Positions 46,822-61,206 of a stretch of DNA of 64,000 bases are shown here, in pieces. A program made the translations under genes and the position numbers. Under the pieces are notes generated by a model, which was not told the origin of the DNA, searched no databases, and saw nothing but the letters and a program-made list of their open reading frames with translations. Position 1 is the stretch's first letter. Every line of letters begins with the position of its first letter. This DNA comes from Bradymonadia bacterium (GTDB lineage Bacteria; Myxococcota_A; Bradymonadia; UBA7976; UBA1532): contig JBKAGE010000070.1 of assembly GCA_046290225.1 (NCBI GenBank), positions 32,001 to 96,000 on the forward strand, read 5' to 3'.

Positions 46822-49800
46822 ATGATCCCCCCAGCAGCGAGCACCTCCCAAAACACCCTCTTCACTGTGTTGCCCACTCTGGGCGCCTGGCAAGACCGGG
46901 CCGTGAGCACCCTCGCCACCGGCGCCGCCGTCGTGCTCGACCTCGGTGATCGCCCTGTGGATGTCGCCGCCGCCCCGACCCACGCGTCGCTGTGGTGGCG
47001 CGTAGGCAGTCATCGCAGCGCCGACCTCGCCGCGTTGCTCGACCGTGGCGGCCGCGCTGAGGGGCTGTGGATTGCAGCGGGTCATCGCTTCGAGGATGTA
47101 CAGGTGGCCGTGGCGCAGCTGAAGCGCCGTGCCCCGAGCCGGCCCATCGCCGTGGAGGTCCTCTCCCGTCAGGAGGCAGAGGCTGCGATGGCCGCCGGGG
47201 CCACCATGGTGGTCTGCAAGGGCCTCGAGGCCGGCGGCTTCATCGGCGAAGAGAGCATCTCCGTGCTCACCCGAGCCTGCGCCGAGGTGGCCCCCATGGT
47301 GGTGGCCTGGGGTGGCGCTGGCCCTGATAGCGTCGCCGCCTTGAAGGCGCTCGGTGCATGTGGGGCGGTCCTCGCAGACGCCCTGATGCTCGCCTCGGAT
47401 GCCCCCACCGGCGAGGCCCTGCGCAAGATTCTGCATCGCTTCGACCCTCGAGACACCCGCACACTCGGCCGACAGTTCAACCGCCGCCTCGGGGTCTTCG
47501 CACAGCTGGGCACCCGGCCTGTACGGGCGCTCGAAGCTGAAGCCGCAAGCCTCTTCAAGGGCCACGAGGCGCAAGGGGCTGAGCAGTTCTGGGGCCAGGT
47601 CCGTGACACCCTCGCCGACGATGTGTCGACCTGGAACCCGAAGACGCACGTGCTCGCCCTTGGTCAGGAGGCCGCCCTCGCCCGCCACCTGATGGCCGCC
47701 GTGGGCGCCGAGGGCACCACCGCCGATCTGGTGAGCCATGTGCAGCGCGTCACCGCGGAGATCGAGGCCGGCGTCGCCGCCGACTTCCCGCTCCAGGCAG
47801 GCGCAGGCATCTGCCGCACCAACGGCACCGTCCTGCCGATTCATCAGGGCCCCATGGCCCAGACCAGCGACGTGCCGGCCTTCGCCGAAGCCGTGGCCCG
47901 TGCCGGCGCCATGCCCTGGCTGGCCCTGGCGAACATGCCCACCCACGTCGCCGAGAAGCTCATGGTGGAGACCGCGGCCCGCCTCGGCGATCTGCCCTGG
48001 GGTGCCGGCATCATCGGCCTCGAGGCCAACCCCTACCGCGACGCCCACATCGAGCTGATCAAGAAGTACCGGCCTCAGAGCGCCCTCGTCGCAGCGGGCA
48101 CCACGGAGCAGGCGCAGCAGATCGAGAACTTCGGGGTGCCCAGCTGGCTGCACACCCCGACGCCGAACCTGGTCCAGGGGGCCCTGGCCGCCGGGGCCAC
48201 CCGATTGATTCTGGAGGGCAGCGAGGCGGGCGGCCACGTGGGCACCCTCGGCGGGCTGCTGCTCTGGCAGCTCGGCGCTCTGGAGATGATGGCCGCCATC
48301 GACGAGGGCGTTGCTCAGGCCGACGCCCTCGCCGTGACCCCCGCAGGGGGCATCGGCGACGCTCGATCTGCAGCGGCGGCCGCCACGGTGATGTGGCGTC
48401 TGCATCGCCGCGGCGTGGCTGTGGGCGTGCAGATGGGCACCGCCTACCTCATGACCGAGGAGATCGTCTCCACCGGCGCCCTCACGGCGTACTACCAGAC
48501 CGCCGCCATGCAGGTGGGGCAGACCGTGCTCATGGGCGAGTCGGTGCGCACGCCCACCCGCGTGCTCGACACGCCTCAGGCCACTCGGGTGCTCGCCCGA
48601 GAGGTGGCCCGCGAGGTGGCTCGGGCGCCCCTGGGCGAGCGCAAGTCGGCCTATGAGCACGACAACCTCGGCGGCCTCCGCGCCGCGGCGAAGGGCCAGA
48701 AGATCGACAAGATCATCCCAGGCCAGGGGGCGCTGTTCTGTCCGATCCCCATCGATGAGCAGCAGGACACCGGGCTGTTCCACATCGGCCAGGGTGTGGC
48801 CCTCGTGAAGGGCACCACCACCATGGCCGCCCTGCACCACGACGTCACCGAGGGTGCCCGGGCCGTGATGGCCGGCGAGGCCCCTCGACAGCAGCGGAGC
48901 GTCCCCACCGAGCATGCGGCGCCTTCTGCTCTGGCAGCGAGCGCGCCCGAGGGAGCCATCGCCATCGTCGGCGTCGGCTGCTGCCTGCCCGATGCCCTCA
49001 CCGTGGAGCAGTTCTGGCGCAACCTCATCGAGGGCCACAGCGCCATCGGCGAGGTCCCCGAGTCACGGTGGTCCACTGATCTGTTCTACAACGCAGATCC
49101 CAAGGCTGAAGATCGCACCTACAGCCGCATCGGCGGCTTTGTGCGGGACTTCAAGTTCGACCGCAAGGCCTTCCGCCTCCCGCCGAAGGTGGTCTCCCGC
49201 ATCGACGTGGGGCAGCAGTGGGCCCTCGAGGCCACTCGGCAGGCCCTCACCGACGCCGGGCTCTATGGCGACGACGCCAAGGCCTTCGACCGCAGTCGCT
49301 GCGCAGTCATCCTCGGCAACGCCATGGGGGGTGATACCCGCGACCTCACGAACTTCCGCTTGAACATGCCAAGGTTCCTGCAGGCCCTCGACGGGGTGCT
49401 CACCGAGGTGGATCCGGAGCTGGGTCGCCGGCTGCAGGCCATGAAGTCCGATCTCGAGGCCCGCTTGAAGGTGGGGCAGCTGGTGGTGGACGAAGACGCC
49501 ATGCCCGGGGAGCTGTCGAACATCGTCGCCGGTCGCGTGGCCCAGGTCTTCGATCTGCATGGCCCCAACTTCACCACCGACGCCGCCTGCGCCAGCAGCA
49601 TGGCTGCCCTGCAGGGGGCCATCGAGGGTCTGCGCAGCAAGCGCTTCGACATCGCCGTCTCTGGTGGCGTCGACAGCAGCATGGGCATGCCTGCCTATGT
49701 GAAGTTCTCGAAGATCGGCGCCCTCTCGGCCACGGGCTCGCGGCCCTTCGACGCCGGCGCCGATGGCTTTGTGATGGGTGAGGGCGCCGCGGTCCTGGTG

Positions 49801-52800
49801 CTCAAGCGCCTCGACGACGCCATCACTGATGGCGATCAGATCTACGCGGTCATCCGCGGCATCGGCGGCTCGAGTGACGGCAAGGGCAAGGGCATCACCG
49901 CGCCGAACCCTCGCGGCCAGGCCCTGGCGCTGCGCAACGCCTCGGAAGACGCCGGGGTGAGCCTCGGCACCCTACAGATGGTGGAAGCCCACGGGACCTC
50001 CACCCGGGTGGGGGATCGCACCGAGGTGGAGGTGCTCACGCAAGCGTTCACCGAGGCCAAAGACGCAGTGGCTCCCGGCTCGGTGGCTCTGGGCTCGGTG
50101 AAGTCGATGCTCGGCCACCTGAAGGGGGCCGCCGGCGCCGCAGGGGTGCTCAAGACCGCCCTGGCGCTGTATCACGAGACGATCCCCCCGTCGCTCAATT
50201 TCGAGCGCCCCAACGAAGCGCTGCTCACAGAAGGCAACCCCTTCTCCGTACCCACGTCGCCCAAGGCCTGGGCTGCCGCTGGCACGCCGCGCCGTGCCGG
50301 CGTGAGCGCCTTCGGCTTCGGCGGCACCAACTTCCACGTAATCCTGGAAGAAGCGCCGAGGGCGGGCGTCTACACCGATGGTGACGCAGTGCCCTCCACC
50401 CATGATTTCGCCACCCCTTCGGCACCGGCCTCCATGGCCGCCGCCGAAGCCTCAGCGCCAGCCGTCACGCACGCAGCCGCGCCTGCTCAGAAAGAATCGA
50501 TCTCCATGACCAGCGCTCAGACCCCCGCCGCCGATCACGAGGCCATCTACGCTCGCATCCTCGAGGTGCTGTGCACGCGGACGGGCTACGACGCCGACGA
50601 GATCGAGCCCGACTTCGAACTCGAGGCCGATCTGGGCATCGACACCGTCAAGCAGGCGGAGATCATGGCCGAGGTCCGCAAGGTCTACGGTCTGCCCCGT
50701 GACGAGACCTTCAAGCTCGCTGATTACCCCACGCTCCAAGCCATGACTCAGTACGTGGTCAAGATGACCGGCGGTGTTGCACCTGCTTCGGAGCTGGCTG
50801 CAGCGCCGACAGCACCCGCAACGCCTGCAGCGCCCGTCACAACGCCTGTGGTGGCCACGCCGGCCGCACCAGAGGCACCTGTGGCAGCGGACCCTGTTGC
50901 AGCAAACCCTGTTGCAGCGAACCCTGCTGCGGACAACGAGGCCATCTACGCTCGCATCCTCGAGGTGCTGTGCACGCGGACGGGCTACGACGCCGACGAG
51001 ATCGAGCCCGACTTCGAACTCGAGGCCGATCTGGGCATCGACACCGTCAAGCAGGCGGAGATCATGGCCGAGGTCCGCAAGGTCTACGGTCTGCCCCGTG
51101 ACGAGACCTTCAAGCTCGCTGACTACCCCACGCTCCAGGCCATGACTCAGTACGTGGTCAAGATGACCGGCGGTGCTGCACCTGCCGCGGAGGCTTCTTC
51201 TGCCCCCGCAGCAACAGCAGCGCCTGTGACGGAAGCGCCCTCAGCAGCTCCTGCTGCGCGTCCGGCGTGGTGGGGCTACCTGCCTGTCACCGTCACCGCT
51301 GATCGCCCCGAGGCCCTCGACCGGGCCATTGCTGATCTGCTCACCGCCCTTGGTGCCCGCGGCGAAGCCGCTCTGGAAGACGCCCGACGCCCTGCCCTGG
51401 ACGCCACGGCGCTCCGGGCCCAGTGCCGACTGACCTGCCCCGTGCCCCCCGGTGATGTCGCTGGTGCCACCAAGGCCCTCGACAGCGCCCTCAACACGCT
51501 GCGGACCGGCAAGGGCAAGCGCGTGCTCGAGGCTCGGGGCATCAGCCTGCGTCTCACCGCCCCCAGCGGAGCCAGGACCGCGTTCCTGTTCCCTGGGCAG
51601 GGCTCGCAATACACCGGCATGCTCTCCGATCTTCGGGGGGACTTCCCGGTCATCGACGAGGTCCTCGCCGAGGCCGACAAGATCATGGTCCCCCTGTTGG
51701 GCCACAAGCTGTCGACCTACTTCGATCCTCAGCAGCCCGAGCTGGTCATCGCCGGGGAACGCCGCAGCGCCGACGAGGCTCTGCGCCAGACCCAGATCAC
51801 CCAGCCCGCCATGCTCACCGCCGACATCGCCATGTTGCGCGTGATCGAAGGCTTCGGCCTCGCCCCCGACGTGGTGGCCGGGCACTCCCTGGGCGAGTAT
51901 GCCGCCTGCGTCGCCGCGGGCATGCTCGCCCTCGCCGACGGCCTGCAGACCGTGTCCACCCGGGGCACCGCCATGGCCCAGGCCACCCCCATGGGCGGCG
52001 ACTGTGGCCTCATGGCTGCCATCCCCGCCGGGGTGACCCAGATCCAGGGCATCCTGGACGCGTGCAGCGGCTATGTCATCGCCGCCAACAAGAACAGCCC
52101 CGCCCAGACGGTCATCGCCGGCAGCACCGAGGGCGTGCAGGAGGCCCTGGCAAAGCTCGCCGAGGCGGGCTTCGACGGCATGCTCATCCCCGTGAGCCAT
52201 GCCTTCCACTCCGAGGTGGTGGCCAGCGCCTCGGTGCCCCTCACCGCCCACCTGAAGTCCATCGACGTGAAGGCTCCGGCGATCCCCGTGCTGAGCAACG
52301 TCACCGCAGAGTACTTCCCGAGCAACCGAGCGCAGATCATCGATCTGCTCGGGGTGCAGGTGGCCCGCCCGGTGGAGTTCATCGGCATGGTGGAGCGCAT
52401 GTACGCCGACGGCGTGCGCACCTTCGTGGAGATCGGCCCCAAGCGGGCTCAGACGGGCTTCGTGAACAGCATCCTCGGTGATCGCCCCCACCGGGCCCTG
52501 TGCACCAACCACCCCAAGTTCGGCGGCCCCACCACGCTGCGGACCGCCCTCGCCGGCGCCGTGGCCGAGGGCATCGCCCTGCAGCCCTGGTCTGCAGATC
52601 GCCGCGCCATCAAGCTCAACGCAACCGCGGCAGCCTCTGTGGCCCCTGCGCCCATGGCGGCAGCGCCTGCGCCGAGCGCACCCGCAGTGACCGCCTCGCA
52701 GCCCACCGTCGGTGAGCCCGTGGTGGTGAGCGGCCTCACCGCTGCCCTCCCAGGCCGCGAGCGGCTCTTCACCGACGAAGACCCCTTCGAGCGGATCCTC

Positions 52801-55800
52801 AACGGCGAGAACCTCATCTCGGAGATCCCCGAGGCCGCCCGCCGCAACATGGCCAACAAGGCCATCACCCGCCTGGTGAAGAACAAGGACGGCGGCGGCG
52901 AGCTCGTGCCCGTGGACAACCCCGACGAGATGATCCACCTCGCCGGCCAGCTCGGCGATTACGATCTCATCGAGGACTTCGGGGTGCCCGCCGATCTGGT
53001 GAAGGCCCTCGACCGCGCCACGGGCGCCGCTTTGGGTTGCGGCCTCGACGTGCTCCGCGACGCCGGCCTGCCCATGATCCCCCACGAGCGGGTGACCCGG
53101 AGTGGCCGCAAGCTCAAGGTGGGCTGGCGACTGCCGGAGGTCATCGGTGATCGCACCGGCGTGATCTTCGCCTCGGCCTTCGCCGGTGAAGATGTGATGA
53201 TGGACGAGCTGAGCCGCCACATGGAGGCCCAGTTCGCCACCCGCACCGAGGCCGCCCGGGCCACCCTCGCCGAGCGCATGCTGCAGGCCCTGCCCGACGC
53301 TGAGAGCCGCGCCCGCATGCAGGCCCTCATCGACGAGGCCATCCCTGCTCAGGATCCGGCGGAGCTGTTCCAGTTCAACCGCCAGTACCTCGTGCAGATC
53401 CTCGGCCTCGGGGCCAGCCGCTTCGCGGAGTTCGTCGGCGCCCGCGGGCCCAACCTGCACATGAACATCGCCTGCGCCTCCACCACCGGGGCCGTGGCCA
53501 TCGCCAACGACTGGATCGCCCAGGGCCGCGCCGATCGCGTGGTGATCCTCGGCGCCGACGACGTCACCCGCGGGCACCTGCTCGAGTGGGTGGGCTCCGG
53601 CTTCCTCGCCGTGGGCGCCGCCACCAACGTCAAGGATGTCGCCGAGGGTGCCCTGCCCTTCGATGCCCGTCGCAACGGCATGATCGTCGGCGGCGGCGCA
53701 GTGGCTCTGCTGGTGGAGAAGGAGTCCGAGGTCCGAGCCCGAGGCATGTGCCCCGTGGCCGAGGTGGTGGCGACGCATCTGGTGAACAGCGCCATGCACC
53801 CCACCCGCCTCGACGTGGATCACGTGGCCCGGGAGGTGGGCGCCCTGATGACCGCCGCTGAGGCCAGGAAGCCCGGCCTCGATCGCCACGAGATCGCCTC
53901 GAAGACGGTCTTCATGAGCCACGAGACCTACACCCCCGCCCGAGGGGGCAGCGCCGCAGCGGAGATCGAGGCCCTGCGCCGCACCTTCGGCGACGCAGCC
54001 AACAGCGTGGTCATCGCCAACACCAAGGGCTTCTCGGGCCACCCCATGGGGGCGGGCATCGAAGACGCCGTGGTGCTCAAGGGCATGCAGCGCCAGAAGC
54101 TGCCCCCCATCGCCAACTTCAAGGTGCCTGATCCCACTCTGGGCGATCTCCGGCTCAGCCAGGGCGGCCCCCACGAGCTGCAGTACGCCCTGCGCCTCGC
54201 CGCGGGCTTCGGTTCTCAGCTCGCGCTGGTGCTCTACCGGGCCATGAGCACGATCCACACGCACCCCAACGAGGACCGCGTGGACGATCGGGCCCTGTAC
54301 CGCCGCTGGGTGGGCAGCCTCATCGGCGCCGACCAGGCTGAGGTCGAGGTGGTGAAGCGCGTGCTCCGGGTGCTGCCGATGAAGGCCGCCCAGCCCGAGG
54401 CCCCGGCCCCCACCACGGTGACGCCCGGAGTCCCTGCGCCTCAGCAGGTGATCCAGCCTGTAGCGGCGGCCCCTGCGGCCACCGCTCAGGGTGAGGCGGC
54501 GATCTACGGCACGCTGCTCGAGGTGCTCTGTGAGCGCACCGGCTACGACGCTGACGAGGTGGAGCCGGAGTTCGAGCTCGAGGCCGACTTGGGCATCGAC
54601 ACCGTCAAGCAGGCGGAGATCATGGCCGAGGTCCGCAAGGTCTACGGCCTGCCCCGCGACGAGTCCTTCAAGCTCGCCGACTACCCCACGCTCAAGGCCA
54701 TGACCGCTTACGTCATCAAGATGACTGGCGGTGCAAAGGCTGCAGCGCCAGCCGTCGAGGCGGCCCCGGCAGCACCTGCGCCCAAGGCCCCTGTGGCCAG
54801 GGTGCAGCTGGCTCAGGCCCCCGCTCCTGCCCCCGTCAAGGCTCAGCCTCCCATCGTCGAGGTGAACCCCGTAGCCGATCCCCGCGTGGTGGAGGCCCCT
54901 ACGGTCGAGACGCCTGCAGTGCTGGAGCCCAAGGGCATCGAGCGCCGTCTGGTCACCGTGAACGAGGGCCCGGGCATCGCCCCTGATCCTCAGCGGCTGC
55001 GCCAGCAGGTCGCTGGCCGCACCGTGGCCCTCGTCGGCGGCCCCGAAGGTCTCACCGAGACCCTCGCCAAAGCCCTCGCCGAGGCCGGCGCCCGCACGGT
55101 GACTCTCCCCCTCCCCACGGGGGGCGACATCGACGCCTGGACCGCCCACTTCGAGGGCGTGCTCTCCGGCGTCACCGGCGTCATCCAGATGCTGGGCTAC
55201 AGCCCTGTGGATGGCCCCGAGGGCGTCTACCGCCAGGGCGCCCTCACCTTCGCTCTGGCCAAGGCCCTGCGTCGGCAGCAGCCTGCAGGGGGCTTCTTCA
55301 TCACCCTCACCAGCATGGGCGGCCGCTTGGGCTTCGGTCAGGGGAACGGCACCCTGCCCCTCGGCGGCGCCGTGGCCGGTGTCACCAAGAGCCTGAGCCG
55401 CGAGTGGGCCGAGGCCCGCGTTCGCGTCATCGACCTCGAGCCTGGAGTGGTGTTCCACGGCCTGGGTGAGCTGGTGCTCGCCGAGGCGTTCTCCGACCGC
55501 CACGAGGTAGAGGTGGGCATCCGCGGCGGCCAGCGCTTCACCGTGCGGGAGACCGCGCTCTCGGTGAGCGGGCCCTCCCCCATGGGCGTGCGCCTCAACC
55601 CCACCTCGGTGATCCTCATCACTGGGGGCGCCGGGGGCATCACCGCCCGCATCGCCGGCGACATCGCCCGGCGCACTGGGGCCCGGCTGGCCCTCGTGGG
55701 CCGCACCGCCCTCACCCACGCCGATCCGCGTAGCATCGACCTCGAGCAGGAGAAGGCCCGTATCAAGGCTGATCTCAAGGCCCGCGGCGAGCGCGCCACG

Positions 55801-58392
55801 CCCATGGCGGTGCAGAAGGCCATCCGCCCTCTGGCTCGCCAGCAGGAGATCGCCGGGATCATCGACGCCCTCAAGGCCGAAGGGGCCGCCGACGTGGCCT
55901 ACTTCAGCGCCGACACCTCCGATGGGGCCGCCCTCGAGACCGTGGTCCGAGAGGTGCGTCAGCGCTTCGGCCGCATCGACGGGGTCATCCACGGCGCCGG
56001 TGTGGAGATCAGTCGCCGCATCGAGGAGAAGCCCGGGGCGGAGTTCGACCGCGTGTTCCGGGGCAAGGCCCTCGGCGGGCTGCACCTGTGGCGCCTCACT
56101 GGTGAGCAGCGGATCGCAGGCGAGGGCCCATTGTCGTTCTTCGTCACCTTCAGCTCCGTCGCTGGCCGCTACGGCAACGCCGGCCAGGCGGACTACAGCG
56201 CCGCCAACGAGGTGCTCAACAAGCTCGTGGCCCAGGTGAACGCCGGGGGCAAGGCCCAGATCGCCTTGTCGCTGGACTGGACCGCCTGGGACGAGGTAGG
56301 CATGGCGGTGCACGGCTCGATGAAGCAGATCCTCACCGCCGCAGGGGTGGAGCTGCTGCCCCCTGAGGTGGGCGCCCCCATGGTGGGTGACCTGCTCGAG
56401 TCGGGCATCTGGGGTGAGGTGGTCATCGCCGGCCGCCTCGGCCAGCTCGGGGGCAAGACCCCCGTGGCCCCGCCGGTGGCCTTGCCCGATCTCAGCCGCA
56501 GCCCCTTCCTCGATGCCATCGTCCGGTACACCCCGGGCCAGAGCCTCGAGGCGAGCCGCACCCTCGACCTGACCCGCGATCACTGCCTGCGGGGCCACAT
56601 CTACGACGGCGTGGCCCTGGTGCCCGGGGTCATCGGCATGGAGATGATGGCCGAGGCCGCTCGGGCGCTGTTCCCGCGCCTGGCCTTCATCGGGGTGGAC
56701 GATCTCGACTTCGCCGCCGCCCTCAAGCTGCACCGGGGCGAGCCTGTGGAGGTCCGCGTCGACGTCGAGGCTCTGCCCGCCGTCGAGGGTGAGGCCGCTC
56801 AGCTCGTGAAGGCCTCGGTCCGTTCGGTGCGCACCAACCGCGCCGGTCGCACCCTCGAGGCAGAGCACTTCCGCTCCATCGTGCGCCTCGGCGGTCTCGC
56901 CGACCCCGCGCCGGAGCCGTTGCCTTTCGACACCGAGGATGCCTTCCGGGTGGGCCCTGATCAGCACGTGCTCTACCAGCGCATGTTCCACAGCGGGGTC
57001 TTCGAGGTCATCACCGACATCCCCTTCGTGGGCGACAAGGCGGTCATCTGCCGCGGCCGGCTCCCCGGCGCAGCCCTCACCGAGGGTGGCCTCGATGACG
57101 ACGCCATCACTGATCCGCTGGTCCGGGAGATGGCCTTCCAGACTGCTGGCCTGTGGGGGATCATCTGGCACAAGCGCCAGTACCTGCCCCTCAAGGCACG
57201 CCAGATCCGGCAGTACCAGCGCCACCTGCCCGAGGGCGGGGAGCTGGTCATCCGGGCCCGTCTCATCGAGGGCGGCCCGGAGAAGGCCGTGCTCGACGTG
57301 GAGGTGGTCACCCTCGACGGCCGGCTGATCCAACGCCTGCACGGCCTGGAGATGATCGGCCACCGTCCCCTGGCGGAGCACGAGATCCTCAACGTGGGCC
57401 CTCAGCGCCCGGTCATCGGCCGCACCCTCGAGGTCGAAGACATCCGCGTGTGGATGGGTGGCCTGGGCAAGATCATCGACGACACCCTCACCCCCGAGGA
57501 GCGCGCCGAGTGGGCCCGTCTGCGGCACCCTGATCGTCGTATGGACTGGCTCGCAGGCCGGATGGCGGCCAAGTCCCTCGTCTGTGACTACGTACGGGAC
57601 TTCATGGGCCAGGGCATCGACCCCGAGCGGGTGCAGATCACTCGGACCGAGGCGGGGCAACCCGTGGTGCGGTTCCACCCGCCGGAGAAGGCCCCCGGCC
57701 GACCCCCGGCCCTCACCATCAGCCACTCCAGCGGCACCGCCCTCGCCGTGCTCGCCCTGTCGCCCAACCTACGACCTGGGGTGGACATCGAGCGGGTGCA
57801 GCCCCGGAGCGAGGCCTTCATCGCCGACTACTTCACCGAGGCCGAGGCCGCTCTCGAGATCCCCGGGGCCATCAGCCGCGACGAGCGCATCACCGCGCTC
57901 TGGGCCCTCAAAGAGGCAGTGACCAAGGCCCTGGGCACCGGTCTCGCGGTGAGCACCTCGGACATCACCATCGAGTCCATCACCCCCACCCGAGAGGGCA
58001 ACACCCTCGAGGGTCAGGCTCAGATCAGCCTGAAGGGCGACGCGCTGAGGGCATACGACGCGCTGGAAGGCCAGGCCCTCACCGCCACGGTCACCCTCGT
58101 GGGGGCCTTTGCCCGGGCGCTGGTCTGCCTCACCAGCGAGCTGCCCCTCGACCCGCCGGCGGCGCAGGTTGCCCCTGTGGAGCCTGTCGCCGATGTACCC
58201 GTCGGTGAGCCCACCGCCGAGCCCGCCCCGGCCCCCATCGCTGATCGCCACGTGGAGCGCGCCACCCACGCCGAGGGGCAGACCCTCGCCGTGCGGCCTG
58301 CGCTCGACGACAACCTCAAGGCGGCCATCGCCGCCCTCTTGTTCGACCGCGGCCTGTTGAGCCACGGCCTGCGCCCCGGGAGCAAACGATGA
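46822..58392 (+). CDS. Iterative type I PKS/FAS-like megasynthase: ER(FabK/PfaD-like x2)-KS-ACP-ACP-AT-KS-ACP-KR-DH-PPTase
   Basis: ER: LPIHQGPM, EGSEAGGHVG, AGGIGD, VQMGTAYL; KS1: DAACASS, EAHGTST, GHLKGAAG; ACP x3: EADLGIDTVKQAEI; AT: FPGQGSQY, GHSLGEY, HAFHS; KS2: NIACAST, SHETYT, GHPMGAG; KR: TGGAGGI, FSSVAGRYGNAGQADYSAAN; DH: HIYDGVALVPG; PPTase: ISHS, GVDIE, WALKEAVTKA. Confidence 0.93.
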   Translation: MIPPAASTSQNTLFTVLPTLGAWQDRAVSTLATGAAVVLDLGDRPVDVAAAPTHASLWWRVGSHRSADLAALLDRGGRAEGLWIAAGHRFEDVQVAVAQLKRRAPSRPIAVEVLSRQEAEAAMAAGATMVVCKGLEAGGFIGEESISVLTRACAEVAPMVVAWGGAGPDSVAALKALGACGAVLADALMLASDAPTGEALRKILHRFDPRDTRTLGRQFNRRLGVFAQLGTRPVRALEAEAASLFKGHEAQGAEQFWGQVRDTLADDVSTWNPKTHVLALGQEAALARHLMAAVGAEGTTADLVSHVQRVTAEIEAGVAADFPLQAGAGICRTNGTVLPIHQGPMAQTSDVPAFAEAVARAGAMPWLALANMPTHVAEKLMVETAARLGDLPWGAGIIGLEANPYRDAHIELIKKYRPQSALVAAGTTEQAQQIENFGVPSWLHTPTPNLVQGALAAGATRLILEGSEAGGHVGTLGGLLLWQLGALEMMAAIDEGVAQADALAVTPAGGIGDARSAAAAATVMWRLHRRGVAVGVQMGTAYLMTEEIVSTGALTAYYQTAAMQVGQTVLMGESVRTPTRVLDTPQATRVLAREVAREVARAPLGERKSAYEHDNLGGLRAAAKGQKIDKIIPGQGALFCPIPIDEQQDTGLFHIGQGVALVKGTTTMAALHHDVTEGARAVMAGEAPRQQRSVPTEHAAPSALAASAPEGAIAIVGVGCCLPDALTVEQFWRNLIEGHSAIGEVPESRWSTDLFYNADPKAEDRTYSRIGGFVRDFKFDRKAFRLPPKVVSRIDVGQQWALEATRQALTDAGLYGDDAKAFDRSRCAVILGNAMGGDTRDLTNFRLNMPRFLQALDGVLTEVDPELGRRLQAMKSDLEARLKVGQLVVDEDAMPGELSNIVAGRVAQVFDLHGPNFTTDAACASSMAALQGAIEGLRSKRFDIAVSGGVDSSMGMPAYVKFSKIGALSATGSRPFDAGADGFVMGEGAAVLVLKRLDDAITDGDQIYAVIRGIGGSSDGKGKGITAPNPRGQALALRNASEDAGVSLGTLQMVEAHGTSTRVGDRTEVEVLTQAFTEAKDAVAPGSVALGSVKSMLGHLKGAAGAAGVLKTALALYHETIPPSLNFERPNEALLTEGNPFSVPTSPKAWAAAGTPRRAGVSAFGFGGTNFHVILEEAPRAGVYTDGDAVPSTHDFATPSAPASMAAAEASAPAVTHAAAPAQKESISMTSAQTPAADHEAIYARILEVLCTRTGYDADEIEPDFELEADLGIDTVKQAEIMAEVRKVYGLPRDETFKLADYPTLQAMTQYVVKMTGGVAPASELAAAPTAPATPAAPVTTPVVATPAAPEAPVAADPVAANPVAANPAADNEAIYARILEVLCTRTGYDADEIEPDFELEADLGIDTVKQAEIMAEVRKVYGLPRDETFKLADYPTLQAMTQYVVKMTGGAAPAAEASSAPAATAAPVTEAPSAAPAARPAWWGYLPVTVTADRPEALDRAIADLLTALGARGEAALEDARRPALDATALRAQCRLTCPVPPGDVAGATKALDSALNTLRTGKGKRVLEARGISLRLTAPSGARTAFLFPGQGSQYTGMLSDLRGDFPVIDEVLAEADKIMVPLLGHKLSTYFDPQQPELVIAGERRSADEALRQTQITQPAMLTADIAMLRVIEGFGLAPDVVAGHSLGEYAACVAAGMLALADGLQTVSTRGTAMAQATPMGGDCGLMAAIPAGVTQIQGILDACSGYVIAANKNSPAQTVIAGSTEGVQEALAKLAEAGFDGMLIPVSHAFHSEVVASASVPLTAHLKSIDVKAPAIPVLSNVTAEYFPSNRAQIIDLLGVQVARPVEFIGMVERMYADGVRTFVEIGPKRAQTGFVNSILGDRPHRALCTNHPKFGGPTTLRTALAGAVAEGIALQPWSADRRAIKLNATAAASVAPAPMAAAPAPSAPAVTASQPTVGEPVVVSGLTAALPGRERLFTDEDPFERILNGENLISEIPEAARRNMANKAITRLVKNKDGGGELVPVDNPDEMIHLAGQLGDYDLIEDFGVPADLVKALDRATGAALGCGLDVLRDAGLPMIPHERVTRSGRKLKVGWRLPEVIGDRTGVIFASAFAGEDVMMDELSRHMEAQFATRTEAARATLAERMLQALPDAESRARMQALIDEAIPAQDPAELFQFNRQYLVQILGLGASRFAEFVGARGPNLHMNIACASTTGAVAIANDWIAQGRADRVVILGADDVTRGHLLEWVGSGFLAVGAATNVKDVAEGALPFDARRNGMIVGGGAVALLVEKESEVRARGMCPVAEVVATHLVNSAMHPTRLDVDHVAREVGALMTAAEARKPGLDRHEIASKTVFMSHETYTPARGGSAAAEIEALRRTFGDAANSVVIANTKGFSGHPMGAGIEDAVVLKGMQRQKLPPIANFKVPDPTLGDLRLSQGGPHELQYALRLAAGFGSQLALVLYRAMSTIHTHPNEDRVDDRALYRRWVGSLIGADQAEVEVVKRVLRVLPMKAAQPEAPAPTTVTPGVPAPQQVIQPVAAAPAATAQGEAAIYGTLLEVLCERTGYDADEVEPEFELEADLGIDTVKQAEIMAEVRKVYGLPRDESFKLADYPTLKAMTAYVIKMTGGAKAAAPAVEAAPAAPAPKAPVARVQLAQAPAPAPVKAQPPIVEVNPVADPRVVEAPTVETPAVLEPKGIERRLVTVNEGPGIAPDPQRLRQQVAGRTVALVGGPEGLTETLAKALAEAGARTVTLPLPTGGDIDAWTAHFEGVLSGVTGVIQMLGYSPVDGPEGVYRQGALTFALAKALRRQQPAGGFFITLTSMGGRLGFGQGNGTLPLGGAVAGVTKSLSREWAEARVRVIDLEPGVVFHGLGELVLAEAFSDRHEVEVGIRGGQRFTVRETALSVSGPSPMGVRLNPTSVILITGGAGGITARIAGDIARRTGARLALVGRTALTHADPRSIDLEQEKARIKADLKARGERATPMAVQKAIRPLARQQEIAGIIDALKAEGAADVAYFSADTSDGAALETVVREVRQRFGRIDGVIHGAGVEISRRIEEKPGAEFDRVFRGKALGGLHLWRLTGEQRIAGEGPLSFFVTFSSVAGRYGNAGQADYSAANEVLNKLVAQVNAGGKAQIALSLDWTAWDEVGMAVHGSMKQILTAAGVELLPPEVGAPMVGDLLESGIWGEVVIAGRLGQLGGKTPVAPPVALPDLSRSPFLDAIVRYTPGQSLEASRTLDLTRDHCLRGHIYDGVALVPGVIGMEMMAEAARALFPRLAFIGVDDLDFAAALKLHRGEPVEVRVDVEALPAVEGEAAQLVKASVRSVRTNRAGRTLEAEHFRSIVRLGGLADPAPEPLPFDTEDAFRVGPDQHVLYQRMFHSGVFEVITDIPFVGDKAVICRGRLPGAALTEGGLDDDAITDPLVREMAFQTAGLWGIIWHKRQYLPLKARQIRQYQRHLPEGGELVIRARLIEGGPEKAVLDVEVVTLDGRLIQRLHGLEMIGHRPLAEHEILNVGPQRPVIGRTLEVEDIRVWMGGLGKIIDDTLTPEERAEWARLRHPDRRMDWLAGRMAAKSLVCDYVRDFMGQGIDPERVQITRTEAGQPVVRFHPPEKAPGRPPALTISHSSGTALAVLALSPNLRPGVDIERVQPRSEAFIADYFTEAEAALEIPGAISRDERITALWALKEAVTKALGTGLAVSTSDITIESITPTREGNTLEGQAQISLKGDALRAYDALEGQALTATVTLVGAFARALVCLTSELPLDPPAAQVAPVEPVADVPVGEPTAEPAPAPIADRHVERATHAEGQTLAVRPALDDNLKAAIAALLFDRGLLSHGLRPGSKR
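50537..51185 (+). repeat. Near-identical ~250-bp internal duplication (ACP1/ACP2) plus 15-bp linker microrepeat
   Basis: 50537-50786 versus 50936-51185 (offset 399 bp), three mismatches seen; GCAGCxxACCCTGxT x3 at about 50884-50928. Confidence 0.9.
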
Positions 58393-58895
58393 GTCGTTAT
58401 GTGGTCAAGATGCCCGGGGGTCAGCCGATCCCCGTCCGTCTCACTGCGGGGCCCCGGGGCTGGTCTGCAGAGGTGGAAGACGGCGCCCACTGGCTGAAGC
58501 TGGTGCACTTCGACGGACAGGACGCGGTGTGTGTGGAGATCGACGGCGATCGATACGAGCTGTCGCTGAGCCGCGACTTCGGCGATGTGGAGATCGCCCC
58601 GGCGACGCTGCCCCCCACCACCCACAAGCCCCGGCCCAAGGCCATCGCGGCCCCTGGGGACTTCACCAGCACCATCACCGGCGCGGTGCTGGAGATCTGC
58701 GTGGGCCCCGGCGATCACGTGCAGCCCGGTGATCCCCTGGTGGTCATCGAGGCCATGAAGATGGAGAACACGCTGTGCGCCCCCCGAGCGGGCACCATCG
58801 TGGCGATCTCTGCCCGTCAGGGCGACACTGTCCGCAAGGGCGAAACCCTGCTGGTCCTGGGGCCCCCGCCCCTCGACCCCCCCACCATGCACTGA
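58389..58895 (+). CDS. Biotin carboxyl carrier protein
   Basis: IEAMKMEN biotinylation motif; VGPGDHVQPGDPLVV; ATGA overlap with the megasynthase stop. Confidence 0.92.
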   Translation: MSRYVVKMPGGQPIPVRLTAGPRGWSAEVEDGAHWLKLVHFDGQDAVCVEIDGDRYELSLSRDFGDVEIAPATLPPTTHKPRPKAIAAPGDFTSTITGAVLEICVGPGDHVQPGDPLVVIEAMKMENTLCAPRAGTIVAISARQGDTVRKGETLLVLGPPPLDPPTMH

Positions 58896-58909
58896 GCCGA
58901 GGAGCGACC

Positions 58910-60469
58910 ATGTCAGTGAGTGAAGATCCCCGACTCAAGGCGGCCCACAGCGAGGGCCTGCAGACGCCGAAGGCCCCTCAAGGCACGGCACAGGCCCCTC
59001 AGACCAAGGCGCGCCCCGAGGCCCGGGCCATGCACCGCCTGATCCGGCTGTTCGATCCCGGCACCTTCGAGGAGATCGGATCACAGGTGACCCACCGGTG
59101 CACCGATTACGGCCTCGAGAAGAAGCAGCACCCCGGCGATGGCGTGATCACCGGCTTCGGTGAGATCGACGGCCGCACGGTCTGCGCCTACGCCCAAGAT
59201 CGCACCGTGCTCGGTGGCTCTCTCGGCGAAGCCCACGCCCAGAAGATCACCGCCCTGCAGGACATGGCCCTGCGCATCGGCGCCCCTCTGGTGGCCCTGA
59301 ACGATTCTGGCGGCGCCCGTATCCAAGAGGGCGTGAACAGCCTCGGAGGCTACGGCGAGATCTTCCGCCGCCACGTGGCGGCCTCGGGCGTGATCCCACA
59401 GATCGCCCTGGTCCTGGGCCCCTGCGCCGGCGGCGCGGTGTATGCCCCGGCCCTGATGGACTTCGTGGGCATGGTGGATCACGGCGCCTACATGTTCCTC
59501 ACCGGCCCTCGGGTGGTGAAGACGGTGACCTTCGAAGACGTGACCCCCGAGGCCCTCGGCGGTGGCGAGGTCCACGCCACCCAGACCGGCGTGTCGCACT
59601 TTCTGTTCCCCGACGAAGAGGCAGCCATCGATCACGTACGGCAGCTGCTGAGCTACCTGCCGGGCCGTCAGGGCGATCCGTTGCCTGATCACGAGCCCAC
59701 TGATCCAGTGAACCGTATCAGCGCTGATCTCGAGTCACTCGTGCCCGCAGATCCGCGTCAGCCGTACGACGTGCGCCTGGTCATCGACGAGATCCTCGAC
59801 CGCGACAGCTTCCTCGAGGTGCACCCCCTCTGGGCCCAGAACGTGGTGGTGGGCTTCGCCCGCCTCGGCGGCAAGGTGGTGGGGGTCATCGCCAACCAGC
59901 CCCTGCACCTCGCCGGCGTGCTCGACATCGACTCCAGCCGCAAGGCCGCCCGCTTCATTCGCACCTGCAACGCCTTCGGGGTACCCCTGGTGAGCCTCGT
60001 GGACGTACCCGGGTTCCTGCCCGGCGTAGATCAGGAGCACGGCGCGGTCATCGATCACGGCGCCAAGCTGCTCTACGCATACTGCGAGGCCACGGTGCCC
60101 AAGCTGAGTGTGGTGCTGCGCAAGGCCTACGGCGGCGCATACATCGTCATGAGTTCGAAGCACGTAGGCGGTGACGCCAACCTGTCCTGGCCTCAGGCGG
60201 AGCTGGCGGTGATGGGCGCCCCCGGCGCGGTGCAGATCCTGAACCGCAGGGAGCTCGCCGCTCACCCTGAGCCTGCCACCCGTCAGAAGGAGCTGGAGGA
60301 GGAGTACAAGGATATGTACTTGTCACCGGCTCGGGCAGCCTCTCGTGGCTACCTCGACGAGATCATCGACCCGGCTCAGACACGGCGGAAGCTGTACCGC
60401 TATCTGAAGGCGCTGGGCTCGAAGCAAGAGTCTCTGCCTGCGAAGCGCAACGGGAACGCACCTCTCTGA
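58910..60469 (+). CDS. Acyl-CoA carboxylase carboxyltransferase subunit (PccB/MmdA-like)
   Basis: PGDGVITGFG, DSGGARIQEG, GPCAGGAVY, VDVPGFLPG, RKAYGGAY, KRNGNAPL; GAGGAG RBS. Confidence 0.95.
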   Translation: MSVSEDPRLKAAHSEGLQTPKAPQGTAQAPQTKARPEARAMHRLIRLFDPGTFEEIGSQVTHRCTDYGLEKKQHPGDGVITGFGEIDGRTVCAYAQDRTVLGGSLGEAHAQKITALQDMALRIGAPLVALNDSGGARIQEGVNSLGGYGEIFRRHVAASGVIPQIALVLGPCAGGAVYAPALMDFVGMVDHGAYMFLTGPRVVKTVTFEDVTPEALGGGEVHATQTGVSHFLFPDEEAAIDHVRQLLSYLPGRQGDPLPDHEPTDPVNRISADLESLVPADPRQPYDVRLVIDEILDRDSFLEVHPLWAQNVVVGFARLGGKVVGVIANQPLHLAGVLDIDSSRKAARFIRTCNAFGVPLVSLVDVPGFLPGVDQEHGAVIDHGAKLLYAYCEATVPKLSVVLRKAYGGAYIVMSSKHVGGDANLSWPQAELAVMGAPGAVQILNRRELAAHPEPATRQKELEEEYKDMYLSPARAASRGYLDEIIDPAQTRRKLYRYLKALGSKQESLPAKRNGNAPL

Positions 60470-60597: not shown

Positions 60598-60897
60598 ATG
60601 AACTGGTTCAGCGCCAAACTCCTGTTTGCTGCCTTCATCGATGGTCGTCTCAACTCTGACGCTCTAGTGGAAGAGAGCATCATCATCTTCAGGGCGACAA
60701 CCGCAGCAGCAGCATCTATTCAAGCTGATGAATTGGGTCAAAAGGCAACGCACTCATACAAAAATGAGGTCAATGAAGAAGTTGAATGGAGATACATTAG
60801 ATTGCTGGAGATACAAGACCTCGGTGAAACAACACTTGATGATGGCGTAGAGGTGTTTTCCACTATGCGCAGGCGATCCCCTGAGGACGAGTTGTAG
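60598..60897 (+). CDS. DUF4288-like small protein
   Basis: WFSAKLLF...EESIIIFRA...YKNEVNEEVEW...LDDGVEVFS pattern; visibly AT-richer than its neighbours. Confidence 0.65.
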   Translation: MNWFSAKLLFAAFIDGRLNSDALVEESIIIFRATTAAAASIQADELGQKATHSYKNEVNEEVEWRYIRLLEIQDLGETTLDDGVEVFSTMRRRSPEDEL

Positions 60898-60927
60898 TGA
60901 GCATGTAGAAGATGTCTCTACACTGAC

Positions 60928-61206
60928 ATGACGCTGGCGCGTTTTTCTCGAACCGCCAAGGAGGTCTTCTCTCAAATGCTGAGCGACGTAAAAATCACCG
61001 AGCCTTTCTCCGACGAGTACAAGGCCATCGTTCAAGACGCCCGAGTCGACAATTCTCGACAGACGCTCAAGAAACAGATGCGCCTCAAGTTTCAGGGCCT
61101 CTCCGCAGACCACGAGGCCATCATCGACGCCGCCGACGCTGCTGCGCTCGACAAAGCTCTTGAGCTCATTCTCTCAGCCGACACACCCGACGAAGTCTTG
61201 AGCTGA
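60928..61206 (+). CDS. Small protein resembling the C-terminal DUF4351-like domain of Rpn/PD-(D/E)XK proteins (orphan or remnant)
   Basis: LKKQMRLKFQGLSADHEAIIDAADAAALDKALELILSADTPDEVLS resembles the L..RFG.L......I..A....L..W...IL.A.SLEEV pattern. Confidence 0.5.
   Translation: MTLARFSRTAKEVFSQMLSDVKITEPFSDEYKAIVQDARVDNSRQTLKKQMRLKFQGLSADHEAIIDAADAAALDKALELILSADTPDEVLS

What the first reader, a model, noticed from the sequence alone, without database searches (positions are those of the whole stretch)
46822..60469. Self-contained single-chain lipid/polyketide synthase operon of unusual architecture
Seen: one 3856-aa protein with ER-ER-KS-ACP-ACP-AT-KS-ACP-KR-DH-PPTase, coupled (ATGA) to a biotin carrier and a carboxyltransferase; no thioesterase or tailoring genes. 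Established: PUFA synthases split PfaA (KS-MAT-ACPn-KR-DH), PfaD (FMN ER) and PfaE (PPTase) over several genes; enediyne PksE is KS-AT-ACP-KR-DH-PPTase without ER or a second KS; fungal/mycobacterial FAS I has a different order. Inference: a distinct class of iterative, fully reducing, self-activating FAS/PKS that makes its own extender, possibly a primary type I FAS or a source of a novel long-chain lipid.
Basis: partly seen in the sequence, partly recalled or inferred. Interest (0 to 1): 0.85.

Follow-up and report, generated by a model that had tools for sequence, protein, structure and literature searches.

The report
Threonine-carrier giant fatty acid synthase
One giant gene carries predicted domains for every step of fatty-chain building, its carrier domains have threonine where serine is the rule, and the same operon is the only fatty-acid-building machinery found in closed genomes of predatory Bradymonas-type bacteria described as unable to make fatty acids, so it is likely an overlooked all-in-one fatty acid synthase.

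Summary
The gene is real and not a chimera. It is a fully fused member of the 'Type R' Pfa-like synthases catalogued in 2011 (product unknown), so the class is not new; this scan met the family before in archaea. Three points were in none of the papers or notes I saw. (1) All three ACPs have Thr, not Ser, at the phosphopantetheine site; so do 771 of 771 aligned ACP sites in 236 relatives. (2) The second KS is FabF-like and keeps Cys-His-His in 119 of 119, so it is no CLF. (3) In Bradymonadaceae, published as fatty-acid auxotrophs, 32 of 35 genomes carry the synthase and 0 of 35 have FabF, FabI or AcpP. Each of the 32 has exactly one enoyl reductase (14 fused FabK-type, 18 free FabV-like); the 3 non-carriers have neither. 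Cultured members make iso-C15/C17 acids in pure culture. Best reading: an independent type I fatty acid synthase with Thr-linked cofactor (inferred, untested). Against: this host and most other bacterial carriers keep FabF, and the release step is unknown. The operon lacks biotin carboxylase.

The parts
46822..58392 (+). Megasynthase ORF, 3856 aa (P0001)
46849..47787 (+). ERa: degenerate FabK-like domain, His replaced (EAGGF, F140); likely structural
   Evidence: 0 of 60 two-ER relatives keep His
47800..48861 (+). ERb: FMN-dependent FabK-type enoyl reductase, EAGGH (H472)
   Evidence: His in 61 of 61; all 7 PDB hits FabK-type
48958..50352 (+). KS1, PfaA/PKS-type, C923-H1057-H1099
50551..50757 (+). 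ACP1, LGIDTVKQAE, Thr1275 at the phosphopantetheine site; domain has no Ser
50950..51156 (+). ACP2, Thr1408; 99% DNA-identical to ACP1; no Ser
51580..52527 (+). Acyltransferase, GHSLG (S1689) and HAFH malonyl-type motif
52717..54312 (+). KS2, FabF-like, C2218-H2367(SHETYT)-H2407; not a CLF
   Evidence: Cys-His-Glu-His in 119 of 119
54511..54714 (+). ACP3, Thr2594
55087..56418 (+). Pseudo-KR plus ketoreductase (GGAGGIT, Y3125)
56521..57378 (+). PKS-type double-hot-dog dehydratase (H3259, E3436); no FabA-type domain
57478..58068 (+). Sfp-like PPTase (GVDIE, WALKEA)
58389..58895 (+). Biotin carboxyl carrier protein, AMKM (K124)
58910..60469 (+). Acyl-CoA carboxyltransferase (PccB/AccB family) with Ile at the position of S. 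coelicolor PccB 422

Best explanation
The operon likely encodes an iterative, fully reducing type I fatty acid synthase of the Type R lineage that would attach its phosphopantetheine arm to threonine with its own built-in PPTase. Shown: domain set, intact active-site motifs, Thr at every ACP site, distribution. Inferred cycle: the operon's biotin carrier and carboxyltransferase, with a biotin carboxylase from elsewhere, make malonyl-CoA; the AT loads it on the Thr-ACPs; KS1 and the FabF-like KS2 condense (likely split between priming or short chains and later rounds); KR, DH and the FabK-type ER complete each round, giving saturated straight or iso-branched chains of about C14-C18. With no thioesterase, the chain would leave by transfer to CoA or directly to a lipid acyltransferase (not identified). 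In Bradymonadaceae it is likely the main fatty acid source; in this host it is an addition to a dispersed type II set.
For: Motifs of KS1, KS2, AT, KR, DH, ERb and PPTase are intact and conserved in the 120 closest proteins. Class survey of 86 genomes at least 85% complete: in family f3 (Bradymonadaceae) the KS1 ortholog is in 32 of 35 (31 at E<1e-150, G022 split over two contigs), FabF and AcpP over cut-off in 0 of 35, FabI in 0 of 35. In single-contig genomes G002, G003 and G027 the synthase is the only KS match at E<=1e-30 and the only FabD-family match at E<=1e-55, and there is no FabA/FabZ; G002 has no FabH either. Enoyl reductase: fused FabK-type in 14, free FabV-like in 18, both in 0, neither only in the 3 non-carriers. 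Other carriers have FabI (L008, L018) or an acyl-CoA dehydrogenase homologue (L116, L122) beside it. Biotin carrier plus carboxyltransferase follow the gene in 10 of 10 Bradymonadaceae loci read. P. caeni in pure culture has 54.8% iso-C17:0; B. sediminis has iso-C15:0, C17:0 and iso-C17:1 (PMC7188933); yeast extract and peptone are an unlikely source of these (my inference). Nearest solved relatives: KS2 FabF, ERb FabK.
Against: No product has been measured. This host has FabF, AcpP and FabD over cut-off plus FabI, FabG and a FabZ-like gene, and 0 of 19 other genomes of its family carry the synthase. Outside Bradymonadia it usually coexists with FabF: 5 of 8 bacterial carriers and 6 of 7 carriers among 161 Chloroflexota. 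Loss of type II synthesis does not require it: 3 f3 genomes (87-96% complete) and all 22 of f6 and f7 lack both. The ER swap maps to only one or two events on the tree, so the 14/18 split is not 32 independent tests. No release enzyme was found, and G002 lacks PlsX. I recall that E. coli AcpS does not accept a Ser-to-Thr ACP; I could not fetch that paper.
Confidence: 0.6

Rival explanations
1. It is a secondary-lipid synthase for a long (C20-C32) or partly reduced chain, such as wax ester, diol, ether or hydrocarbon precursors; the Bradymonadaceae get membrane fatty acids by scavenging or by CoA-based elongation using the FabV/Ter-like reductase.
For: Coexists with FabF in this host and in 11 of 14 other distinct bacterial carriers tested (5 of 8; 6 further ones). 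The scaffold is PfaA-like (TIGR02813, 892 bits), and characterised relatives of that kind make heterocyst glycolipid and phenolic-lipid chains (PMC3098273). Two active KS domains could extend long chains. Mu et al. report many FadL transporters.
Against: Closed genomes with no other KS, AT or dehydratase still grow without prey and are rich in iso-odd acids. The FabV-like gene is missing in exactly the three f3 genomes without the synthase and in all 50 other genomes of the class besides the host. No tailoring genes are conserved next to the operon.
Confidence: 0.27
2. The Thr-ACPs are not phosphopantetheinylated; they are structural or regulatory, and the catalytic domains work on CoA thioesters or on a free Ser-ACP supplied in trans.
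For: Ser is the textbook attachment residue and all aligned solved carriers shown have it. Small free Ser-ACPs exist in the closed genomes.
Against: Thr is invariant in 771 of 771 sites with the surrounding motif nearly fixed; ACP number and position vary as in working tandem-ACP synthases; a PPTase is fused in 103 of 120 or is the adjacent gene in seven loci (L008-L010, L047, L068, L083, L116). The free ACP of G002 sits in a separate cluster with a PLP enzyme.
Confidence: 0.07
3. It is a PUFA or polyene synthase.
For: PfaA is the best NCBIfam match; tandem ACPs and an FMN-type ER resemble Pfa systems.
Against: Below the PfaA cut-off (892 of 1010); no FabA-type dehydratase/isomerase; no CLF; G001 and G023 carry separate clusters with FabA-type domains; major acids of cultured carriers are mostly saturated.
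Confidence: 0.05
4. The single ORF is an assembly chimera.
For: ACP1 and ACP2 are a 99%-identical repeat that could be mis-assembled; one outside contig skips 399 nt, one ACP copy.
Against: Same order in P0002 and P0003; 60 of 120 relatives carry ER, both KS and PPTase in one chain. At most the ACP copy number is uncertain.
Confidence: 0.01

Closest known systems
Type R secondary lipid synthase (Shulse & Allen 2011, PMC3098273; parts 2-3 of 7, search passages and supplement rows read)
   Same: Core KS-AT-KS-KR with tandem ACPs, linked PPTase, and an acetyl-CoA carboxylase gene beside it in one case. Roseiflexus sp. proteins of that layout are 54% (KS1) and 50% (KS2) identical and share the Thr-ACP and HET motifs; KS1 falls in one clade with them.
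   Different: Here ER and PPTase are fused and two ACPs lie before the AT. The paper calls KS2 a CLF, lists no DH or ER, does not contain the word threonine, names no Bradymonadia or archaea, and gives no product.
PUFA synthase PfaA-E and pfaDA fusions (PMC13291983, passages read)
   Same: PfaA-like KS1, AT, tandem ACP, KR, DH; FMN-type ER; ER and PPTase fusions have precedent.
   Different: Ser-ACPs (LGIDSIKRVE in 11 of 11 ACPs of 4 Pfa-type loci), KS-CLF and FabA-type domains in Pfa; none here.
Fungal and mycobacterial FAS I (domain order recalled)
   Same: One chain or complex with FMN-dependent ER, no thioesterase, and in fungi a built-in PPTase: a likely functional parallel.
   Different: Different order and ancestry, one KS, one Ser-ACP, separate acetyl and malonyl/palmitoyl transferases.
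Enediyne PksE (recalled)
   Same: KS-AT-ACP-KR-DH-PPTase in one iterative chain.
   Different: PksE has no ER or second KS and works with a thioesterase to make polyenes.

Membership tests
Type R (Shulse & Allen 2011) | Core order KS-MAT-second KS-KR in one pfaA-like gene | tested here: met
Type R (Shulse & Allen 2011) | 3-6 tandem ACPs after the second KS | tested here: not met
   Two ACPs before the AT and one after KS2; ACP position varies freely among relatives, so this marks a variant
Type R (Shulse & Allen 2011) | Linked PPTase | tested here: met
   Fused rather than a separate gene
Type R (Shulse & Allen 2011) | KS1 in the Type R clade | tested here: met
   48-row clade, SH-aLRT 96, quick tree, apart from PfaA-type KS. 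Roseiflexus sp. proteins served as genus-level stand-ins; the five founding sequences were not obtained
Type R (Shulse & Allen 2011) | Second KS is a CLF (no catalytic Cys) | tested here: not met
   Cys-His-His kept in 119 of 119 and in the Roseiflexus sp. proteins shown, so the label looks wrong for the family
PUFA synthase PfaA-E | PfaA above the TIGR02813 cut-off | tested here: not met
   892 of 1010 bits
PUFA synthase PfaA-E | KS-CLF and FabA-type dehydratase/isomerase | tested here: not met
Enediyne PksE | No ER, single KS, partner thioesterase (recalled) | tested here: not met
Fungal/mycobacterial FAS I | AT-ER-DH-MPT-ACP-KR-KS order (recalled) | tested here: not met
   no such chain among the best 60 PDB hits
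Type I fatty acid synthase (function) | All steps of a fully reducing cycle present with intact motifs | tested here: met
Type I fatty acid synthase (function) | Makes C14-C18 acyl chains for membranes | not testable with these tools
   Only indirect:
Acyl carrier protein | Ser at the phosphopantetheine site | tested here: not met
   Thr in 3 of 3 here and 771 of 771 aligned sites

The most novel reading that the evidence does not exclude
Type R megasynthases are a third, independently assembled type I fatty acid synthase, spread over bacteria and archaea (Asgard, Thermoplasmatota, Halobacteriales), that runs on threonine-linked phosphopantetheine with a private PPTase, insulated from the host's serine carriers, and that has replaced type II synthesis in the Bradymonadaceae.
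Probability: 0.45. Interest if true: 0.92.

Novelty: new variant of a known kind. Interest (0 to 1): 0.8.

Why it matters
Phosphopantetheine on serine is treated as universal for carrier proteins; a large family that uses threonine would be a new form of the modification and an orthogonal ACP/PPTase pair for engineering. The operon offers a direct answer to how Bradymonadaceae, published as fatty-acid auxotrophs, fill their membranes with iso-C15/C17 acids without prey, and cultured strains make this testable now. It would give the first product for Type R, and bears on whether Asgard and marine archaea that carry the same machine can make fatty acids.

Tried and rejected
Literature: 10 searches of the held library. 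The four aimed at Thr-linked phosphopantetheine or the family motifs returned 0 papers; most subscription journals are not held, so absence from print is not shown. The supplements of PMC7460792 (9 files searched) hold no 'polyketide' or 'ketoacyl' entry, so expression could not be read there; one of the two supplement stores gave no answer. Sequencing runs: no RNA holder listed; three DNA runs hold only short pieces and none spans the gene. The stand-alone biotin carboxylase at C75:252433 was tested as a private partner: its closest matches are in 16 of 19 family members that lack the operon, so it is not specific. General replacement of type II synthesis by this family was tested and rejected outside Bradymonadaceae. 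Recent transfer from Bradymonadaceae: not supported; P0001 groups with P0002/P0003 outside that clade and its GC3 of 0.875 lies within the genome's range; gain versus loss in the host family is unresolved. No promoter-like site upstream. No complex prediction was run. Both trees are quick trees with SH-aLRT only, and the place of KS2 rests on a long branch.
Full report
OBSERVATION. The ORF at 46822-58392 encodes 3856 aa and overlaps a biotin carrier gene by ATGA; a carboxyltransferase follows. Pfam and profiles built from relatives give ERa-ERb-KS1-ACP-ACP-AT-KS2-ACP-pseudoKR-KR-DH-DH-PPTase. ERb is FabK-type with His in 61 of 61 relatives; ERa lacks it in 60 of 60. KS1, AT (malonyl-type HAFH), KR, DH and PPTase motifs are intact. 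The operon has no biotin carboxylase; the genome has four. The carboxyltransferase has Ile where S. coelicolor PccB has residue 422, as in PDB variant 1xnw; that Ile favours acetyl-CoA is recalled. The host's other PccB-type gene has Asp there.

FAMILY. A whole-length search gave 1809 hits among 2151 scored candidates, many of them probably ordinary PKSs; I analysed the 120 listed. Of these, 119 have both KS domains, 103 a fused PPTase, 60 ER, both KS and PPTase in one chain, and 3 the exact order of the window. ACP number and position vary. Named carriers include Bradymonas, Persicimonas, Microvenator, Lujinxingia, Desulfomonile and Heimdallarchaeota; genome loci add Poseidoniales, other Thermoplasmatota, a Lokiarchaeon, Halobacteriales, Chloroflexia, Acidimicrobiia and Holophagales. 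The core matches Type R of Shulse and Allen (KS-MAT-CLF-ACP3-6-KR plus PPTase; product unknown). Roseiflexus sp. proteins of that layout are 50-54% identical in the KS domains, and KS1 forms one clade apart from PfaA-type KS. The founding sequences themselves were not obtained. Earlier notes of this scan reached the same family for archaeal copies; I had made the link.

THREONINE ACPs. All three ACPs read LGIDTVKQAE. The Thr aligns with the attachment Ser of PigH, AcpP and AcpM. Across 238 proteins from two searches, 773 ACP domains in 236 proteins gave Thr 771 times and a gap twice; 314 domains, ACP1 and ACP2 among them, contain no Ser at all. The set was chosen by similarity and the profile came from the window, but the same profile finds Ser in 11 of 11 ACPs of four Pfa-type loci. 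A dedicated PPTase, fused or adjacent, fits a carrier that ordinary PPTases would not accept (inference). Four paper searches found nothing on this, and the Type R paper does not contain the word threonine.

SECOND KS. It keeps Cys-His-His with a Glu after the first His in 119 of 119, and its best solved matches are FabF enzymes. It is likely active, perhaps the priming enzyme, since G002 has no FabH. That role is a guess.

DISTRIBUTION IN THE HOST'S CLASS (86 genomes, at least 85% complete; inferred to be Bradymonadia from the named proteins of family f3). Synthase: 32 of 35 in f3, 1 of 3 in f4, 1 of 2 in f5, the host, 0 of 19 in the host's family, 0 of 3 in f2, 0 of 23 in f6-f8. FabF over cut-off: 22 of 86, none in f3. 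FabI: 24 of 86, none in f3. AcpP over cut-off: 23 of 86, none in f3. In single-contig G002, G003 and G027 the synthase is the only KS and FabD-family match at the thresholds used, and FabA/FabZ is absent; G001 and G023, the other two of five tested, carry extra Pfa-like clusters. Eighteen f3 carriers lack the fused ER, which first looked like a flaw. A weak Pfam signal led to a divergent FabV/Ter-like protein whose 5 PDB matches are FabV-type or putative reductases (E 0.01-0.5; the Tyr-x8-Lys motif is recalled). It occurs in exactly those 18, in none of the 14 with a fused ER, in none of the 3 non-carriers and in none of the other 51 genomes. On the tree this is one or two swaps, so it is a clean pattern rather than a strong statistic. 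Biotin carrier and carboxyltransferase follow the gene in 10 of 10 f3 loci read; a carboxyltransferase is near it in 9 of 16 other loci.

LITERATURE LINK. Mu et al. 2020 (PMC7460792; passages and supplement search) report that all Bradymonabacteria lack FabB/F and FabI/L, propose scavenging, note growth on marine agar, and never use the word polyketide. Wang et al. 2020 (PMC7188933; passages) give iso-C17:0 at 54.8% for P. caeni grown on peptone and yeast extract, and iso-C15:0 40.9%, C17:0 30.7% and iso-C17:1 13.7% for B. sediminis. The synthases of G027 and G002 equal the proteins named for these species. The simplest reading is that the synthase makes these acids.

LIMITS. The host keeps a type II set, though scattered: plsX-acpP-fabF, fabI, fabD and fabG inside another KS cluster, and a FabZ-like gene under the family cut-off. 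Five of 8 other bacterial carriers have FabF (L010 and L013 were left out because their labels conflict with their archaeal-type proteins; 13 archaeal genomes have none). Among 161 Chloroflexota, 7 carry the synthase and 6 of them have FabF. Families f6 and f7 lack both systems. So it is not a general replacement, and a long-chain speciality lipid remains possible, above all in this host. Release, chain length and starter are unknown.

PAPERS SEEN. PMC3098273: parts 2-3 of 7, passages, supplement rows. PMC13291983: abstract, passages. PMC7472256: passages (a Heimdallarchaeota KS nearest to PUFA domains). PMC7460792 and PMC7188933: as above. Others: search listings only. PksE and fungal FAS orders, PccB 422, FabV motif and the AcpS result are recalled.

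VERDICT. Real, a new variant of a catalogued but uncharacterised kind. Interest 0.8, for the family-wide Thr carrier and the testable answer to the Bradymonadaceae fatty-acid gap.

Noticed in passing
L108:1219-2511 (-), L107:886-2247 (+), L106:940-2865 (+), L127:7415-8692 (+): Divergent FabV/Ter-like enoyl reductase confined to 18 Bradymonadaceae whose synthase lacks the fused ER; some copies have a C-terminal extension of about 200 aa.
   Followed up: yes
L128:4741-8892 (G002): Small Ser-ACP beside a PLP aminotransferase-family gene, a 391-aa unknown and an NAD epimerase: resembles the bacterial ceramide gene set (role recalled).
   Followed up: partly
L003:6380-12854 (G000:C75:120379-126853): Type II-like cluster of three KS genes (one with two KS halves), FabD and FabG; holds the host's only free FabD; similar clusters occur in many family members.
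   Followed up: partly
G000:C15:13400-16306 and C36:122059-123869: plsX-acpP-fabF without fabH/fabD/fabG, and lpxD abutting lpxA without fabZ; no AccA/AccD in the genome.
   Followed up: partly
L116, L118, L120, L122: Chloroflexota Type R loci have an acyl-CoA dehydrogenase homologue upstream (candidate enoyl reductase); L116, L118 and L120 also have PPTase, carboxyltransferase and biotin carboxylase downstream; FabF lies about 15 kb away in G124 and G145.
   Followed up: partly
L027:5168-19980: Lokiarchaeon locus: biotin ligase, carboxyltransferase, fully fused synthase with ER and PPTase, then an alpha/beta hydrolase (possible release enzyme).
   Followed up: no
family f7 (G050-G062): 13 of 14 genomes have no KS, FabD, AcpP or biotin carboxylase match at the thresholds used: candidates for true fatty-acid auxotrophy.
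   Followed up: no
G081:C31, G083:C123, G084:C22, G085:C108: A different PfaA-like protein (2200-2500 aa frames) with an N-terminal FabK-type ER in genomes where FabD was not found at E<=1e-55.
   Followed up: no
window 60598-61206: DUF4288 ORF at 48% GC and a short 92-aa ORF just downstream of the operon; possible mobile remnants.
   Followed up: no
window 50724-51124: A 96-97%-identical contig from run X1 skips 399 nt, one ACP unit: copy-number variant or collapsed repeat.
   Followed up: partly
L004:7312-13824 (G000:C35:261312-267824): Second type I PKS (2170 aa) next to a free ACP, an acyl-AMP ligase-like gene and glycosyltransferase-like genes.
   Followed up: no
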